From Chryseobacterium sp. (GTDB lineage Bacteria; Bacteroidota; Bacteroidia; Flavobacteriales; Weeksellaceae), in NCBI GenBank assembly GCA_027492795.1, contig JAPUEB010000035.1, positions 63,221 through 127,220 on the forward strand: 64,000 nucleotides of DNA, in the 5' to 3' direction. The translations under genes and the position numbers were made by a program. The notes beneath the pieces are model-generated. The model searched no databases and was not told the DNA's origin. It saw only the letters and a program-made list of their open reading frames with translations. This document shows, one piece after another, positions 13,150 to 47,964 of the stretch. Position 1 is the first letter of the stretch; the number at the start of each line of letters is the position of its first letter.

Positions 13150-16100
13150 TCAGGAAACAATATTAATGATTTTTTTCGGAACAATAATTACTTTTTTCGG
13201 TGAATTTCCAGCCAGTTGATTCTTTACCCTTTCATCACTCATCGCTGCCTCTTCTATTTGTTTGGCATCAAAATCTGCCGGAAGCGCCAATTTGAAACGC
13301 ATTTTTCCATTGAAACTTACCGGATATTCTATTTCATCTTCCTCCAAATAAGATTCATTTAAGATTGGGAAAGGCTCAAATTCAACACTTGTTTCATGGC
13401 CAAGCAAACTCCACAATTCCTCGCAAATGTGTGGTGCGTAAGGAGAAATGATGATTGCTAAAGGTTCTAAAATTTTTCTTTTGTTGCATTTTAGCTTTTG
13501 AAGTTCGTTTACGGCAATCATAAATTGCGAAACGGAAGTGTTAAAAGAAAAATGTTCTATATCAAAAGTAAATTTCTTGATTAAAGTATGTAGAATTTTG
13601 TACTCCTCTTTCGTTGGTTCCTCATCTGAAACTGAAAACGTATCACCATCGAAATACAGGTTATAGAATTTCTTCAAAAATCCGTAAACTCCGCTTAAAC
13701 CTTGCGTGTTCCAAGGTTTTGACTGTTCCAAAGGTCCCAGAAACATTTCATATAAACGCAGACAATCTGCACCGTATTCTTCGCAGATATCGTCGGGATT
13801 GACGACGTTGTATTTGGATTTGGACATTTTTTCGACTTCTCTTTCAGTAATGTATTTTCCCTCTTCCAAAATAAATTCTGCATCTGCGAATTCCTTTCTC
13901 CAATTTTTGAATTTCTCAATATCCAATTCATCGGAAGTTCCTTTTAATAAAGAAACATCTACGTGAATTTTTTGGAAAGAATAAGTACCGGGAAATAATT
14001 CTTTATTAAAATGACTAATATTGTCTTTAAATAATATTTTTTCAATCTCACCCCATATTTCACGATCGTATTTCCCTAATACTTCATTTTGTTTTAAATT
14101 AAATTCTAATGTTTCCTGAGATAGCTCTTTACCCTTAATTATTGGTCTTACTGATTTAAAATATTTAATTAATCTAGGATCAACATATTTATTTAACACA
14201 ATATGCTCTAAAGCTCCAAAGTCATTTTCCTTTGACGGAATTCTGTAATTAACCACTAAACGATAAACAAACGCACTCATTCCCAAAATCATTCCCTGAT
14301 TAATCAATTTTTTGAAAGGCTCTTCCTGATGGATGTAACCTCTGTCCTTCAAAAACATATTCCAAAAACGGGAATACAGCAAATGTCCTGTTGCGTGTTC
14401 GCTTCCGCCAATATACAAATCAACCTGTCCCCAATAATCTGTTAAATTTTTATCCGCAAAATTTTCAGAATTTTTCGGATCCATATATCTTAAAAAATAC
14501 CACGAACTTCCAGCCCAACCCGGCATTGTGGAAAGTTCAATGGGAAATATCCTCTCCCCAACCCTCTCCAAAGGAGAGGGGGGCGGAACTACCTTTTCAG
14601 AAAGCTCGTCCCAATACCACGCTTTAGCGTTTCCAAGTGGCGGATCGCCGTCTTCGGTTGGCAAATATTTTTCAACTTCTGGAAGTTCCAAAGGAAGCGC
14701 AGAAACTGGCAAAGTGTAAGGCATTTCATCTTTATAATAGACAGGTACTGGTTCTCCCCAATATCTTTGGCGTGAAAAAATAGCATCGCGCTGACGGTAA
14801 TTCGTTGTTCCGTGACCAATTCCGCGGTTTTCTATTTCGTCAATGATTTTCGTTTTGGCGGTTTCATAATCCAATCCATCCAAAAATTCTGAATTTACAC
14901 AGACAGAATCTTTGGAATCGTACGATTCTTCCTGAATATCATTATCATTTTTAATGACATTTACGATGTCCAAGCCGAATTTTTTCGCAAATCTGTGGTC
15001 GCGTTCGTCGTGTGCAGGAACTGCCATTACAGCACCAGTTCCGTAACCCATCAAAACATAATCGGAAATATAAATTGGAATTTCTTTTTCTGTAAAAGGA
15101 TTGATTGCATAACTTCCCGTGAATGCTCCGGAAACGGTTTTCACATCCGACATTCTGTCGCGCTCGGTTTTTTTGGAAGTTTCTTCTACATATTTTTCAA
15201 CTTCCGCTTTTTGTGAATCGGTTGTTATTTTTTCAACCAAAGGATTTTCTGGTGCCAAAACCATAAATGTTGCGCCGAAAATAGTGTCGGGACGAGTTGT
15301 GAAAACGGTGATCACATTCCCCCTTTCCCCCAAAGGGGAGAGCTGTGGCAAATTATTCTGGTTGTATTGTGGTTGATTCTCTGGGTGGATTGTGGATATT
15401 TCTTGGACTTCTGATTTTTTTTCTACAAAATCTGGTCTTGATTCTAACTTTACTACAATTTTTTCGATAACATTTTCATTATCACCGATTACTTCCTCAT
15501 TTCTGAATCTAACTACTTCAAAGCCTTCAGATTCCAAAATTTTCGTTCTTTCTTCATCTGAAATTTGTTGCTCCTCCTCATCGTGGTAACCGCCATCAAC
15601 TTCAATAATTAATCTTTTTGATAAACACACAAAATCAACAATAAAATTGTCAATTAGGTGTTGTCTCCTGAATTTATAATCTAATTTTTTAGATTTTAAT
15701 TGCTCCCAAAGAATACTTTCTGCCACAGTTGGATTATCTCTATTTTCCTGTGCTTTTTTAATTAATAGTGCAGAATTATTTCCTCCTGTTAAATATCCAA
15801 ATTTTTGAGCATCACTTTTTAAATCAGCATTTTTTAAAGACTCATTATTAGATTCATTTTTTAGAGACTCAATATTAGATTCATTTTGTAGAAATTCATT
15901 ATTAGAGACATTCTCCCCTTTGGGGGAAAGGGGGAATTTAACCTGCGCTCCCATCGATTTCCCAATCCAATATTCCTGCGAATCTTTCAACGGTTGTGGC
16001 CAATCGATTTTTTGTAAACCTTGCAATAGTCTTTCAGAATAGGCGGTAATTCTCATACTCCATTGCATCATTTTTTTCTGAAAAACTGGGAAGCCGCCAC

Positions 16101-16800
16101 GTTCAGATTTTCCGTCTTTTACCTCATCATTTGCGAGAACTGTTCCTAATGCAGGACACCAATTCACAGTTGTTTCTGCTCGGAAAGCCAATCTGTAATT
16201 CAATAAAGTATCTTGTTTATCGAGTTCTGAAGCGTTGTTCCATTCTTCTGCCGTGAAATTTAATTTTTCGGTTTCTGCAGCGTGAAGATTTTCCGTTCCG
16301 TGTTCTTCAAAATATTTGATTAAAGTAGAAATCGGTTCTGCTTTATCCGTCGTTTTATTGTACCACGAATGAAATAATTCAATAAAAATCCATTGCGTCC
16401 ATTTGTAATACGATGCATCGGAAGTTCTTACTTCGCGATTCCAATCGAATGAAAAACCGATTTTTCTTAATTGTTCTTCGTATCTGGTAATATTTTGTTC
16501 GGTGGTAATTGCAGGATGTTGACCGGTTTGAATGGCGTATTGTTCCGCAGGAAGTCCGAAAGAATCGTAACCAATCGGATGCAAAACATTAAATCCTTGA
16601 TGCCGCTTAAATCTCGCATAAATATCGCTCGCAATATAACCAAGCGGATGACCAACATGAAGCCCCGCTCCTGAAGGATACGGAAACATATCCAAAACGT
16701 AGAATTTTGGTTTATCTGTTGCGTCAGAAGTTTTATAAGTTTGGTTGTCTTCCCAATATTTCTGCCACTTTTTTTCTATCTGCTGATGATTGTAGAACAT
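13150..16800 (-). CDS. leuS: Leucine--tRNA ligase, about 300 aa longer than usual because of in-frame insertions
   Basis: HIGH-type motif (GLHVGHPLGY), TTRPDT editing-domain motif, KMSKS, and a full-length continuous ORF of 1216 aa. Confidence 0.9.
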   Translation of the reverse strand: MFYNHQQIEKKWQKYWEDNQTYKTSDATDKPKFYVLDMFPYPSGAGLHVGHPLGYIASDIYARFKRHQGFNVLHPIGYDSFGLPAEQYAIQTGQHPAITTEQNITRYEEQLRKIGFSFDWNREVRTSDASYYKWTQWIFIELFHSWYNKTTDKAEPISTLIKYFEEHGTENLHAAETEKLNFTAEEWNNASELDKQDTLLNYRLAFRAETTVNWCPALGTVLANDEVKDGKSERGGFPVFQKKMMQWSMRITAYSERLLQGLQKIDWPQPLKDSQEYWIGKSMGAQVKFPLSPKGENVSNNEFLQNESNIESLKNESNNESLKNADLKSDAQKFGYLTGGNNSALLIKKAQENRDNPTVAESILWEQLKSKKLDYKFRRQHLIDNFIVDFVCLSKRLIIEVDGGYHDEEEQQISDEERTKILESEGFEVVRFRNEEVIGDNENVIEKIVVKLESRPDFVEKKSEVQEISTIHPENQPQYNQNNLPQLSPLGERGNVITVFTTRPDTIFGATFMVLAPENPLVEKITTDSQKAEVEKYVEETSKKTERDRMSDVKTVSGAFTGSYAINPFTEKEIPIYISDYVLMGYGTGAVMAVPAHDERDHRFAKKFGLDIVNVIKNDNDIQEESYDSKDSVCVNSEFLDGLDYETAKTKIIDEIENRGIGHGTTNYRQRDAIFSRQRYWGEPVPVYYKDEMPYTLPVSALPLELPEVEKYLPTEDGDPPLGNAKAWYWDELSEKVVPPPSPLERVGERIFPIELSTMPGWAGSSWYFLRYMDPKNSENFADKNLTDYWGQVDLYIGGSEHATGHLLYSRFWNMFLKDRGYIHQEEPFKKLINQGMILGMSAFVYRLVVNYRIPSKENDFGALEHIVLNKYVDPRLIKYFKSVRPIIKGKELSQETLEFNLKQNEVLGKYDREIWGEIEKILFKDNISHFNKELFPGTYSFQKIHVDVSLLKGTSDELDIEKFKNWRKEFADAEFILEEGKYITEREVEKMSKSKYNVVNPDDICEEYGADCLRLYEMFLGPLEQSKPWNTQGLSGVYGFLKKFYNLYFDGDTFSVSDEEPTKEEYKILHTLIKKFTFDIEHFSFNTSVSQFMIAVNELQKLKCNKRKILEPLAIIISPYAPHICEELWSLLGHETSVEFEPFPILNESYLEEDEIEYPVSFNGKMRFKLALPADFDAKQIEEAAMSDERVKNQLAGNSPKKVIIVPKKIINIVS
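14549..14583. repeat. Short palindromic element (CCTCTCC-n-CCCTCTCC-aaa-GGAGAGGG) inside the leuS coding frame
   Basis: atcctctccccaaccctctccaaaggagaggg. The same 32 nt with 1 mismatch occurs intergenically at 47769-47800. Confidence 0.8.
15316..15937 (-). mobile_element. TIR-bounded cassette carrying a DUF559 (Vsr-like PD-(D/E)XK) endonuclease domain, in frame within leuS
   Basis: Perfect 26-bp inverted repeats: attccccctttcccccaaaggggaga at 15316-15341 and its exact reverse complement at 15912-15937. The interior encodes ESILWEQLKSKKLDYKFRRQHLIDNFIVDFVCLSKRLIIEVDGGYHD...GFEVVRFRNEEV (about 15455-15725). Confidence 0.8.
15830..15910. repeat. 3 x 27-bp tandem repeat inside the leuS cassette
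   Basis: Units at 15830-15856, 15857-15883 and 15884-15910. They encode (E[SF]L[KQ]NESN[NI]) x3. Confidence 0.8.
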
Positions 16801-16852
16801 TCTTTCTTGAATTAATAATTAAAAATTAATAATGAATAATTTTTTGGAAACA

Positions 16853-16860
16853 CAAATTTA
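16853..16860 (-). promoter_or_regulatory. -7 promoter box (TAaaTTTG on minus strand) upstream of leuS
   Basis: Plus-strand caaattta, 53 nt upstream of the leuS ATG. Confidence 0.35.
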
Positions 16861-16921
16861 AGGTTTTGAAATGAAAAATCCCCACCTGAAGAAGATGAGG
16901 ATTTTTTAGCTAAGCTTTTAT

Positions 16922-47314: not shown

Positions 47315-47474
47315 AACCACAAAAGGAACAAAAGAATTGATGCTGTTTTAAGGATTACAAAAGAATACAAAAGTTTAGAAATCAAAGATTTCTATTTTGT
47401 GAAATTTTAAAACGCAATATATTCCATCTTTGATTGCTTCGTACCTCGCAAAGACTCTTTTGTGACTTTTGTAT
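47315..47474. repeat. CACAAAAG-family inverted-repeat element in the hypB-hypC spacer
   Basis: aaccacaaaaggaacaaaag and ttacaaaagaatacaaaagt face ctcttttgtgacttttgtat. Related to 32857-33035. Confidence 0.5.
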
Positions 47475-47513
47475 TTTAAAAAAAATAGAACTTTTGGTTT
47501 AAAAACAAAACTT

Positions 47514-47768
47514 ATGTGTTTAGCAATCCCAGGAAAATTAGAAAGCATCACGACCAAGCTCGACGAAACCTTCCGTATTGGAAGCGTTGATTTTGAAGGC
47601 ATCAAAAAGGAAGTCAATCTCGCATTGGTTCCCGAAGCGAAAATTGGCGACTACGTTTTGGTTCACGTTGGTGCCGCAATTGGAATTATTGATGAAGAAG
47701 AAGCCCAAAAAACAATGGACGCGCTGAAATTAATGGGCGAAGATTTGGAATTGGATTCGGAATCCTAA
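47514..47768 (+). CDS. hypC: Hydrogenase assembly chaperone HypC
   Basis: Starts MCLAIPGKL (essential Cys2), so the longer track ORF start is rejected. Confidence 0.9.
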   Translation: MCLAIPGKLESITTKLDETFRIGSVDFEGIKKEVNLALVPEAKIGDYVLVHVGAAIGIIDEEEAQKTMDALKLMGEDLELDSES

Positions 47769-47800
47769 ATCCTCTCCCTAACCCTCTCCAAAGGAGAGGG
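47769..47800. repeat. Short palindromic element, twin of the one inside leuS
   Basis: atcctctccctaaccctctccaaaggagaggg matches 14549-14580 at 31 of 32 positions. Confidence 0.8.
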
Positions 47801-47964
47801 AACGATTACGCTCCAGTTTTGAAAATAGAACTAAAAATGTAAAAATTATATTTTTTAAAAACAGAACACTCGCATTTAATTTTAGAATTTTTGAAATTTA
47901 GTTTAAAAAATATCACACAATCATAAAACGTACGAAGTCCTTCTCCTTCTGAGAAGGATTTAGG

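What the first reader, a model, noticed from the sequence alone, without database searches (positions are those of the whole stretch)
15316..15937. DUF559 endonuclease cassette with perfect 26-bp terminal inverted repeats, read in frame inside leuS
attccccctttcccccaaaggggaga (15316-15341) recurs as an exact reverse complement at 15912-15937, so a 622-bp segment is bracketed by perfect TIRs.

The interior holds an apparently intact DUF559/Vsr-like nuclease domain (ESILWEQLKSKKLDYKFRRQHLIDNFIVDFVCLSKRLIIEVDGGYHD..EGFEVVRFRNEEV) and three 27-bp tandem repeats. All of it is in the same frame and orientation as LeuRS with no stop codon.

The insertion falls between ..GAQVKF and ITVFTTRPDT, which is the entry loop of the CP1 editing domain. 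No intein junction residues are present: there is no Cys/Ser/Thr at the N-junction and no His-Asn at the C-junction. Either the nuclease domain is displayed on an essential aminoacyl-tRNA synthetase, or the insert is dealt with at the RNA level.

In the mRNA, the two TIRs could form a 26-bp duplex that loops out the whole insert. That is speculation.

I know of no description of a TIR-bounded, nuclease-carrying element that persists by staying in frame in a host gene. It resembles Rickettsia palindromic elements, but with a nuclease cargo.

The TIR-to-TIR length (622) is not a multiple of 3, so the ancestral junction cannot be deduced from this window.
Basis: partly seen in the sequence, partly recalled or inferred. 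Interest (0 to 1): 0.88.

Follow-up and report, generated by a model that had tools for sequence, protein, structure and literature searches.

The report
Unspliced nuclease element inside leuS
An essential gene (leucyl-tRNA synthetase) carries, in frame and apparently never spliced out, a selfish-looking DNA element made of a Vsr-like nuclease gene between two inverted G/C hairpin repeats, and related elements sit the same way in many housekeeping genes across Bacteroidota, with no published description found.

Summary
A perfect 26-nt inverted repeat (15316-15341 / 15912-15937) brackets a near-full-length DUF559 (Vsr-like) nuclease domain (Pfam E=6.6e-34). It is read in frame inside a 1216-aa LeuRS, just before the TTRPDT editing motif.

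It is not an intein, an intron or an assembly artefact.

Orthologues show that the element replaces a 7-8-codon surface loop. Filled, empty and decayed alleles are interleaved in the Weeksellaceae LeuRS tree. Two unrelated DUF559 lineages have invaded the same loop. One strain pair (97% nt identical) differs by presence or absence of the element, with a divergence patch around the site.

The nuclease core is under purifying selection (dN/dS 0.12-0.21). The hairpin arms are conserved at the nucleotide level.

The pattern is general. Of the 80 closest metagenomic relatives, 63 are fused in frame to host ORFs (LeuRS, IleRS, ValRS, RecG, Gmk, MetH and others). 41 of 79 testable loci have flanking inverted hairpin arms (0 of 790 shuffles). 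None has a target-site duplication. Arm-only copies are scattered in genes and between genes.

Best reading: an unspliced, homing-type selfish element. Nuclease activity and mobility mechanism are inferred. No prior description was found.

The parts
13150..16800 (-). leuS ORF (1216 aa) hosting the element
   Evidence: ORF. (tRNA-synt_1, LeuRS editing domain, anticodon-binding domain). (orthologues in Kaistella, Chryseobacterium and Cloacibacterium).
15316..15937 (-). Whole element, arm to arm (622 bp). The translated insert is aa 290-496 (15313-15933).
   Evidence: Empty alleles (L091, L092) have a 7-8-codon loop instead.
15912..15937 (-). Upstream (N-terminal side) hairpin arm: C5-TTT-C5-AAA-GGGGAG. 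Translated as FPLSPKGE.
   Evidence: The single strand forms a hairpin. It is 96% nt identical to the Kaistella copy, although third codon positions elsewhere are 54-66% identical.
15828..15908 (-). Three 27-nt tandem repeats (ESNxESLKN) in the N-terminal linker
   Evidence: Absent from orthologous elements. AF2 pLDDT is below 50.
15445..15759 (-). DUF559 / Vsr-like PD-(D/E)XK nuclease domain (aa 348-452). A conserved N-terminal helix starts at about aa 333 (15804).
   Evidence: Pfam. (3HRL E=5e-20; I-Bth0305I 3R3P E=6e-4). (invariant D, E-x-D-G, H, D). (dN/dS 0.12-0.21). (pLDDT 74-91).
15343..15435 (-). C-terminal low-complexity linker (aa 456-486)
   Evidence: length and sequence vary among orthologues, always in frame. 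(pLDDT below 50).
15316..15341 (-). Downstream (C-terminal side) hairpin arm: TCTCCCC-TTT-GGGGG-AAA-GGGGGAAT. Translated as LSPLGERGN.
   Evidence: It is 100% nt identical to the Kaistella copy.
14551..14586 (-). Solo arm of a second subfamily ('B': CCCTCTCC-TTT-GGAGAGGG-TT-GGGGAGAGG) in frame in leuS (PPPSPLERVGER). It replaces 27 nt of host sequence (SVDLIDNET).
   Evidence: The same subfamily flanks the DUF559 inserts of type-B LeuRS alleles.
47769..47803 (+). Second B-type solo arm. It is intergenic and starts directly after the stop codon of a hypC-like ORF (47469-47768).

Best explanation
The 622-bp segment is one copy of a widespread family of selfish elements in Bacteroidota.

Anatomy. 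Each element is a Vsr-like (DUF559) nuclease gene bracketed by two inverted G/C-rich hairpin arms with the layout C-run, 2-4 nt, C-run, 3-4-nt loop, G-run. The leuS copy has neither its own start codon nor its own stop codon. It sits in the surface beta-hairpin at the entry of the LeuRS CP1 editing domain, where it replaced the ancestral 7-8-codon loop.

Expression. It is not removed at the RNA or the protein level. It is translated as part of LeuRS, as a folded nuclease domain held by two disordered linkers that the arms partly encode. The arms have no stop codon in any of the six frames.

Persistence and spread. It behaves like a homing endonuclease gene. The nuclease is expressed by riding on an essential protein. 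It cuts or nicks DNA that lacks the element (an empty allele or an arm-containing site). Recombinational repair from a filled copy then transfers the element together with flanking markers, leaving no target-site duplication. Embedding it in frame next to an invariant motif of an essential gene makes it hard to lose or silence. Arm-only derivatives (solo arms and 80-180-bp arm pairs) are spread through genes, in frame, and through intergenic DNA, in the manner of RPE or REP sequences.

Shown: the anatomy; the in-frame state in many independent assemblies; purifying selection on the nuclease; nucleotide-level constraint on the arms; patchy distribution; independent invasions of one loop; a recombination patch around a recent presence/absence difference; absence of TSDs; and the generality of the pattern across host genes.

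Inferred: nuclease activity, what it cuts, homing as the copying route, and mobilisation of arm-only copies in trans.
For: Anatomy and in-frame state.

Nuclease probably active. There is strong homology to the solved DUF559 protein 3HRL and detectable homology to the homing endonuclease I-Bth0305I. The acidic and His residues are invariant in 73 embedded copies and in 18 diverse cores. dN/dS is 0.12-0.21 at saturated dS. AF2 gives a confident domain between two linkers with pLDDT below 50.

Arms constrained as nucleic acid. In window versus Kaistella, 16 of 17 arm codons share the third position, against 54-66% elsewhere. pS is 0.05-0.15 in the N-linker, against 0.6-0.75 elsewhere.

Mobility.
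- Empty alleles carry a conserved ancestral loop that filled alleles lack.
- Filled A, filled B/C, empty and remnant alleles are interleaved in the LeuRS tree.
- The type A nuclease is closer to the nucleases in ValRS, Gmk and RecG (57-65% identity) than to type B/C in the same loop (46-54%).
- In the filled/empty pair L093/L092 (96.9% nt identical), 21 of 26 upstream mismatches lie within 220 nt of the site and 6 lie within 115 nt downstream. Nearby background is about 0.5-0.8%.

Generality.
- Embedded relatives occur in LeuRS, IleRS, ValRS, RecG, Gmk and an acetyltransferase.
- 73 embedded cluster representatives carry 101 Pfam families.
- The 80 best metagenome loci comprise 45 internal, 12 N-terminal and 6 C-terminal fusions and 17 free-standing copies.
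- Flanking inverted repeats score 14 or more in 41 of 79 loci, against 0 of 790 shuffles.
- Arms also flank the Hoylesella gmk copy (33 nt, 91%), MetH copies and a free-standing intergenic copy.
- There are no TSDs.
- Arm-only copies: 61 occurrences, of which 15 are internal to long ORFs, 21 lie at ORF ends and 25 are intergenic.

Insertion sites adjoin invariant motifs, as is typical for homing elements: TTRPDT in LeuRS, TTRPET in ValRS, WTTTPWT in IleRS, between DEQHRFG and MTATPIPRT in RecG, and before the Gmk P-loop.
Against: - No cleavage activity, target site or transfer event has been observed. Everything about the mechanism is comparative inference.
- A homing endonuclease does not need terminal inverted repeats. 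Their nucleotide-level conservation implies a cis function that this model does not specify.
- Arm-only copies far outnumber nuclease copies in the sampled Bergeyella loci. Two arms at LeuRS site 2 of P0165 may flank host residues. Arms might therefore move independently of the nuclease.
- The window and Kaistella copies are old: dS is saturated. This particular copy may no longer be mobile.
- The divergence patch around the L092/L093 difference is equally expected from ordinary homologous recombination after allele transfer. Other patches exist in the same gene.
- The trees are NJ on short alignments.
- 18 of 45 internal copies show no clear flanking repeat.
Confidence: 0.6

Rival explanations
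1. Nested passenger. The hairpin arms belong to an independent REP/MITE-like repeat family that is moved by some other enzyme or by host processes. The DUF559 gene is a separate homing endonuclease gene that lands inside arm pairs, so the 'TIRs' are those of the landing pad.
For: - Arms occur mostly without a nuclease: solo arms and 80-180-bp pairs.
- The window has two solo B-type arms with no B-type nuclease within 64 kb.
- Mini-elements have a symmetric sub-terminal motif (TATTAGAGAT) on both sides. The leuS element keeps it only on the N-terminal side.
- Possible independent arms occur at LeuRS site 2.
Against: - All 17 free-standing nuclease genes and most fused ones carry arms of the same architecture but of lineage-specific sequence.
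- Both arm subfamilies seen in Weeksellaceae are associated with their own DUF559 lineage in leuS.
- No other candidate mobilising enzyme was seen next to arms.
Confidence: 0.2
2. Domesticated or lineage-specific domain. The DUF559 domain is a stable, vertically inherited accessory domain that serves the host, for example a mismatch nickase tethered to abundant proteins. On this view it is not a mobile element.
For: - Purifying selection acts on the domain over saturated dS.
- The domain is present in several genera at the same site.
- DUF559/Vsr-like proteins can have host repair roles (PMC12907096).
Against: - The same domain is embedded in proteins carrying 101 Pfam families with unrelated functions.
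- Filled and empty alleles are interleaved, and there are decayed remnants.
- Two lineages occupy one loop.
- Flanking inverted arms are conserved as DNA.
- A strain pair 97% identical differs by presence or absence.
Confidence: 0.08
3. RNA-level handling. The 26-bp arm duplex in the mRNA loops the insert out, and it is spliced, processed or bypassed by ribosomes, so mature LeuRS lacks it.
For: The long-range arm stem is in the predicted MFE structure (z=-5.3). The arms are conserved at synonymous sites.
Against: - No Rfam family matches in 14300-16900, even at E up to 1.
- Every orthologue keeps the frame through both variable linkers despite many indels, all in multiples of 3. Nothing would select for this if the insert were removed.
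- Arm-to-arm lengths are not multiples of 3, so excision at the base of the stem would usually shift the frame.
- N-terminal fusions have one arm outside the ORF.
Confidence: 0.04
4. Intein, group I/II intron, or assembly chimera.
For: It is an in-frame insert beside a conserved motif of an essential enzyme, which is the classical intein niche.
Against: - There is no Hint/intein Pfam hit and no nucleophile or His-Asn junction residues.
- No intron family matches.
- The same arrangement occurs in many independent assemblies, including complete genomes (Kaistella beijingensis CP071953, Chryseobacterium suipulveris, C. foetidum).
Confidence: 0.01

Closest known systems
Inteins carrying homing endonuclease domains
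   Same: An in-frame insertion beside invariant motifs of essential and informational enzymes. It has sporadic distribution with empty alleles and encodes a nuclease of a family used for homing.
   Different: There is no Hint splicing domain and no splice-junction residues, so the insert stays in the mature protein. It has inverted hairpin arms and arm-only derivatives, which inteins lack.
Vsr-like / EDxHD homing endonucleases (I-Bth0305I; Dassa et al. 2009, PMC2677866)
   Same: The catalytic domain is homologous (3R3P E=6e-4). These are selfish nuclease genes that interrupt conserved genes.
   Different: The known ones lie in group I introns, or as separate ORFs between split-intein or gene fragments ('fractured genes'). 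Here the nuclease is fused in frame on both sides, without any splicing element. The domain is much closer to the cellular DUF559 protein 3HRL (E=5e-20).
Rickettsia palindromic elements (RPEs) and other in-frame MITEs
   Same: [quoted passage not shown] The solo arms and arm pairs here behave this way.
   Different: No enzyme is known to be encoded by RPEs. Here a long form carries a nuclease. The phylum and the sequences are different, and no TSD is present.
REP/REPIN sequences with their RAYT transposase
   Same: A nuclease-type gene is flanked by inverted hairpin repeats, and many more singlets and doublets of those repeats are dispersed in the genome.
   Different: RAYTs are HUH Y1 transposases, single-copy and extragenic. 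Here the enzyme is a Vsr-like PD-(D/E)XK nuclease, and both the enzyme gene and the repeats are frequently intragenic and translated.
Mitochondrial GC clusters and 'byp' elements of yeasts (from my own knowledge)
   Same: G/C-rich hairpin elements that spread in A+T-rich genomes and can lie inside protein-coding genes.
   Different: Byps are skipped by translational bypassing, and GC clusters encode nothing. Here the insert is translated and encodes a nuclease.
IS200/IS605-type elements (from my own knowledge)
   Same: Hairpin-forming ends and no target-site duplication.
   Different: Those use HUH transposases (with or without TnpB) and lack true terminal inverted repeats. No such gene is present here.

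Membership tests
DUF559 / Vsr-like PD-(D/E)XK nuclease domain (PF04480) | Profile match above the curated cut-off over most of the model | tested here: met
   116.5 bits against a cut-off of 20.6, E=6.6e-34, profile positions 5-108 of 109.
DUF559 / Vsr-like PD-(D/E)XK nuclease domain (PF04480) | Conserved catalytic acidic and His residues (D..E-x-D-G..H..D) | tested here: met
   Invariant in 73 embedded homologues and in 18 diverse cores, with the window sequence as reference (D45, E56, D58, G59, H62, D71). Homology to the solved 3HRL, E=5e-20.
DUF559 / Vsr-like PD-(D/E)XK nuclease domain (PF04480) | Endonuclease activity | not testable with these tools
   Supported only indirectly, by dN/dS of 0.12-0.21.
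Intein | Hint domain, N-terminal Cys/Ser/Thr, C-terminal His-Asn followed by Cys/Ser/Thr | tested here: not met
   No Hint or intein family in Pfam. The junctions are F289|P290 and V496|I497.
Group I / group II intron | Match to the intron RNA structure; no constraint on the reading frame through the insert | tested here: not met
   No Rfam match at E up to 1. The frame is conserved through the whole insert in all orthologues.
Homing endonuclease gene (functional class) | Nuclease family with known homing members | tested here: met
   3R3P (I-Bth0305I) E=6e-4. The Vsr-like homing family is described in PMC2677866.
Homing endonuclease gene (functional class) | Sporadic presence at one site of a conserved gene, with empty alleles and flanking co-conversion | tested here: met
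   Interleaved filled, empty and remnant alleles. Independent lineages in the same loop. A divergence patch of 220 nt upstream and 115 nt downstream in a pair 97% identical. The patch is also compatible with ordinary recombination.
Homing endonuclease gene (functional class) | Site-specific cleavage of the empty allele, and nuclease-dependent conversion | not testable with these tools
   Needs biochemistry and genetics.
Homing endonuclease gene (functional class) | Association with a self-splicing intron or intein, or an intergenic location, so that the host gene stays intact | tested here: not met
   45 of the 80 closest relatives are internal in-frame fusions without a splicing element.
TIR transposon / MITE | Terminal inverted repeats | tested here: met
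   26/26 in the window. Score 14 or more in 41 of 79 loci, against 0 of 790 shuffles.
TIR transposon / MITE | Target-site duplication | tested here: not met
   31 of 41 loci have none, 9 have 1 nt (the chance level) and 1 has 2 nt. In leuS the host loop is replaced rather than duplicated.
TIR transposon / MITE | A recognised transposase (DDE, HUH, serine or tyrosine) in the autonomous copy | tested here: not met
   Only DUF559 and MTES_1575 are detected in the insert.
Rickettsia palindromic elements | Palindromic repeat inserted in frame in protein genes, in multiple copies | tested here: met
   Met as an analogy only: arm-only copies lie inside long ORFs in Flavobacteriia. The sequences and taxa are unrelated, so this is not a member.
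REP / RAYT system | Enzyme gene flanked by inverted hairpin repeats that are also dispersed as singlets and doublets | tested here: met
REP / RAYT system | HUH Y1 (IS200/IS605-like) transposase; extragenic location | tested here: not met
   The enzyme is DUF559. 63 of 80 copies are intragenic fusions.

The most novel reading that the evidence does not exclude
This is a new lifestyle for homing-type nucleases: a hairpin-armed, unspliced, in-frame selfish element. Its Vsr-like nuclease is expressed as a domain of the essential protein it interrupts. It colonises permissive loops beside invariant motifs of many housekeeping protein families across Bacteroidota. It also mobilises arm-only, RPE-like derivatives, which would make it a continuing source of peptide and domain insertions in proteins.
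Probability: 0.45. Interest if true: 0.92.

Novelty: categorically new. Interest (0 to 1): 0.86.

Why it matters
Homing endonuclease genes are thought to survive inside genes only by hiding in self-splicing introns or inteins, or by splitting the gene. This case suggests a further solution: stay in frame, encode your own flexible linkers, and be displayed on the host protein.

If confirmed, it would matter in four ways.

- It would define a new class of mobile element in a major phylum that includes gut Prevotellaceae.
- It would explain many unexplained large inserts and Pro/Gly-rich loops in Bacteroidota housekeeping proteins.
- It would give a testable link between a nuclease and RPE/REP-like in-frame repeats, whose mobilising enzymes are a long-standing puzzle in Rickettsia.
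- It would provide naturally validated permissive insertion sites, and possibly new sequence- or structure-specific nucleases.

It also has a practical bearing on annotation. These proteins are currently named simply 'leucine--tRNA ligase' or 'guanylate kinase'.

Tried and rejected
- Intein: no Hint domain and no junction residues.
- Intron or other structured RNA: no Rfam hit at E up to 1 in 14300-16900.
- Phage origin or vector:
  - No blastn match of the element in 50,697 phage records.
  - The 20-mer arm core occurs once in IMG/VR.
  - No close DUF559 relative was found in viral contigs.
- Classical transposition: no TSDs.
- Assembly artefact: the same architecture occurs in complete genomes and in dozens of independent assemblies.
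- Foldseek of the AF2 fragment returned only LeuRS editing domains. The model was poor outside the two domains (mean pLDDT 59.5), so I used a sequence search against the PDB for the nuclease instead.
- The DNA of P0165 could not be retrieved.
- L094 shows IleRS in several ORFs around a DUF559 ORF. Overlapping ORFs suggest frameshift errors, so I did not count it as a fractured gene.
- The Campylobacter concisus matches to the 20-mer are one conserved locus without the element's features, and were excluded.
- Ten literature searches found no description of in-frame DUF559 elements or of these hairpin repeats. The library lacks most subscription-journal papers.
- I could not census a whole genome, so copy numbers per genome and the match between arm subfamilies and resident nucleases remain untested.
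Full report
**1. The observation**

The sequence is as described.

- ATTCCCCCTTTCCCCCAAAGGGGAGA at 15316-15341 has an exact reverse complement at 15912-15937. It has no other match in the 64-kb window with up to 3 mismatches, against zero expected in shuffles.
- Three 27-nt tandem units lie at 15828-15908.
- A single minus-strand ORF, 13150-16800 (1216 aa), is LeuRS and reads straight through the segment.
- Pfam finds DUF559 (PF04480) at aa 348-452: E=6.6e-34, profile positions 5-108 of 109. The LeuRS editing-domain profile resumes at aa 494 from profile position 20.
- The insert (aa 290-496) lies between GAQVKF and ITVFTTRPDT.
- There is no Hint/intein family hit, and the junction residues are Pro and Val|Ile.
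- No Rfam family matches 14300-16900, even at E up to 1.

**2. The empty site and the organism**

The best LeuRS matches are from Weeksellaceae: Kaistella, Chryseobacterium, Cloacibacterium and Bergeyella. Some of these proteins are 1081-1216 aa and carry DUF559. Others are 934-1027 aa and do not.

One metagenome contig has the same gene order as the window (DUF1800, DUF1501, leuS, motA/exbB). It has an empty site that reads VKF-ETENGEEH-IEVFTTRPDT. The element therefore replaces a 7-8-codon beta-hairpin loop directly in front of the threonine-rich editing motif. The Kaistella beijingensis complete genome carries the element at the same place, with 24/24 perfect arms. This excludes an assembly artefact.

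**3. Selection**

I compared the window with two Chryseobacterium copies.

| Region | dN/dS | Synonymous divergence |
|---|---|---|
| DUF559 core | 0.12-0.21 | dS about 1.1-1.3 (saturated) |
| LeuRS flanks | 0.04-0.08 | pS 0.66-0.76 |
| N-linker containing the upstream arm | not meaningful | pS 0.05-0.15 |

The two Chryseobacterium loci had been found through the right arm, which biases that comparison. I therefore repeated it with the Kaistella copy, which was found by protein similarity. There, 16 of 17 arm codons share their third base, against 54-66% in LeuRS and in the nuclease.

The nuclease is therefore kept as a protein, and the arms are kept as nucleic acid.

AlphaFold2 on aa 205-665 gives a confident nuclease domain (pLDDT 74-91) between two linkers with pLDDT below 50. 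The overall model is poor because the fragment lacks its structural context. By sequence, the domain matches the solved DUF559 protein 3HRL (E=5e-20) and, weakly, the catalytic domain of the homing endonuclease I-Bth0305I (3R3P, E=6e-4).

**4. Turnover at the leuS site**

I built an NJ tree of 84 LeuRS sequences with the insert masked. Four allele states are interleaved in it:

- filled type A (junctions PLSPKGE..SPLGERG);
- filled type B/C (LTPTLSKGEG.. and similar);
- empty (7-8-aa loop);
- 19-25-aa remnants that still show linker motifs such as ..DNQP...

The type A nuclease is 66-80% identical within its type but only 46-54% identical to type B/C. It is 57-65% identical to the nucleases embedded in ValRS, Gmk, RecG and IleRS. 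The B junction lies 2-3 codons further into the loop. At least two nuclease lineages therefore entered the same loop independently.

One filled/empty pair is 97.8% identical in protein and 96.9% in DNA.

- 21 of its 26 upstream mismatches lie within 220 nt of the site.
- 6 lie within 115 nt downstream.
- The adjacent background is about 0.5-0.8%.

This is what co-conversion during homing would leave. Ordinary recombination after allele transfer would look the same, and the gene has other divergent patches.

**5. Generality**

A search with the insert found DUF559 relatives at 55-65% identity embedded in LeuRS, IleRS, ValRS, RecG, guanylate kinase (hundreds of Hoylesella timonensis entries) and an acetyltransferase. 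All have Pro/Gly/Ser/Glu-rich junction peptides.

An exhaustive phmmer search against 1.84 billion cluster representatives gave 23,406 hits. About half of the top 150 are 280 aa or longer, with the domain internal. 73 of these carry 101 different Pfam families, including class I synthetases, GT2, SpoIIE, chorismate synthase, DegT and the B12-binding domain.

A profile scan of metagenome contigs is unbiased with respect to repeats. Its 80 best loci break down as follows.

| Arrangement of the DUF559 gene | Loci |
|---|---|
| Internal in-frame insertion | 45 |
| N-terminal fusion | 12 |
| C-terminal fusion | 6 |
| Free-standing gene | 17 |

The recognisable hosts include the following:

- LeuRS (at least 14) and RecG (8);
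- Gmk (6) and IleRS at two sites (4);
- ValRS and MetH;
- by motif only, Glf, IspF, acetyl-CoA synthetase, BirA and DegT.

The sites adjoin invariant motifs. In the three editing synthetases the element sits before the homologous TTRPDT / TTRPET / WTTTPWT motif.

**6. The arms**

In 41 of 79 testable loci the nuclease is flanked by inverted repeats scoring 14 or more. None of 790 shuffles reaches that score.

The arm sequences differ between lineages but share one architecture:

- an outer C-run;
- 2-4 nt;
- a hairpin made of a C-run, a 3-4-nt loop (often GAA, TTCG or GAAA) and a G-run;
- the mirror image of this at the other end.

Examples outside leuS:

- Hoylesella gmk: 33 nt, 91% complementary. 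The upstream arm lies in the 5' untranslated region and the downstream arm is read into Gmk.
- Maribacter MetH.
- A free-standing intergenic gene with doublet arms.

There is no target-site duplication: 31 of 41 loci have none, and the remainder are at chance level. Arm-to-arm lengths (416-681 nt) show no preference for multiples of 3.

The 20-nt core of the window's arm occurs in 86 loci of species-representative genomes. 29 of these loci are one conserved Campylobacter concisus locus and were set aside. The remaining 61 occurrences are mainly in Flavobacteriia: 15 are internal to ORFs of 250 aa or more, 17 lie at 5' ends, 4 lie at 3' ends and 25 are intergenic. They include 80-180-bp arm pairs read in frame, for example in a MurG-like ORF.

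The window itself has two solo arms of the B subfamily. One is in frame in leuS (14551-14586), where it replaces 27 nt. The other (47769-47803) starts right after a hypC-like stop codon.

**7. Interpretation**

The best-supported reading is a selfish element that combines a Vsr-like nuclease gene with hairpin arms. It survives inside essential genes by being translated rather than spliced. It turns over by recombination-dependent, homing-like transfer.

I hold this at about 0.6. The anatomy, the selection pattern, the distribution and the generality are shown. Nuclease activity, the cleavage target, the role of the arms and trans-mobilisation of arm-only copies are inferred.

The main rival (about 0.2) is that the arms are an independent REP/MITE-like family, and that the nuclease gene is a homing gene nested in them. 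Supporting this, arms greatly outnumber nuclease genes in the sampled loci, and the sub-terminal motif is symmetric only in mini-elements.

The remaining rivals fit the data poorly, for the reasons given under each:

- a domesticated host domain;
- RNA-level removal;
- an intein or intron;
- an assembly artefact.

**8. Novelty**

Ten full-text searches found no description of this arrangement. The searches covered only an open-access library.

The element shares single features with inteins, RPEs, REP/RAYT systems, IS200/IS605 and mitochondrial GC clusters. It fails a defining feature of each of them. I therefore rate it as a new kind of element. The caveat is that its mobility mechanism is unproven.

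Noticed in passing
window 14551-14586 (minus strand, leuS aa 739-750): A solo G/C hairpin arm of a second subfamily is read in frame as PPPSPLERVGER. It replaces 27 nt (SVDLIDNET) that are present in empty orthologues. At the same LeuRS site, Cloacibacterium and Bergeyella orthologues carry a two-arm mini-insert (LPLSPEGENGGK..SPLGRFGGA).
   Followed up: partly
window 47769-47803 (plus strand): A second B-type solo arm (ATCCTCTCCCTAACCCTCTCCAAAGGAGAGGGAAC) starts immediately after the stop codon of a hypC-like ORF (47469-47768). It is intergenic and has no T-run, so it does not look like a classical terminator.
   Followed up: partly
window 13966-14265 (minus strand, leuS aa 846-945): A 100-aa, very A+T-rich (26% GC) segment lies before the KMSKS region. 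It is absent from most orthologues and is replaced by unrelated sequences of different length in others (P0172, P0176, P0208, P0164, P0165). This is a second hypervariable insertion hotspot in LeuRS, with no arms and no Pfam hit.
   Followed up: no
L002-L004 and about 26 further loci (Campylobacter concisus): The exact 20-mer CCCCTTTGGGGGAAAGGGGG occurs once per genome at one conserved locus in many C. concisus genomes, in a 167-174-codon open frame. This is a different phylum, and no DUF559 is adjacent. It could be chance, or a transferred hairpin.
   Followed up: no
L138 (about 2250-2500) and L102 (2375-3000): Tandem arrays of arms flank some DUF559 inserts. Examples are three consecutive SPLEGEARKGL units in L138 and repeated NPPNPQRGD / PPSG.GG units in L102. 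This suggests that arms can amplify locally.
   Followed up: no
L094 434-4425: IleRS is called as three ORFs with a separate 157-aa DUF559 ORF between them. It could be a genuine 'fractured gene', or frameshift errors in a long-read metagenome contig (the ORFs overlap).
   Followed up: no
L097-L176 (arms listed): The hairpin loops of the arms are very often GAA on one strand and TTC(G) on the other, or GAAA. From my own knowledge, these are unusually stable DNA/RNA mini-hairpin loops. This hints that a single-stranded hairpin form matters.
   Followed up: no
L087 2858-3000 (Hoylesella timonensis, upstream of gmk): In N-terminal fusions, the element supplies the start codon and about 140 nt of leader for the host gene. 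Expression of gmk therefore appears to depend on the element.
   Followed up: no
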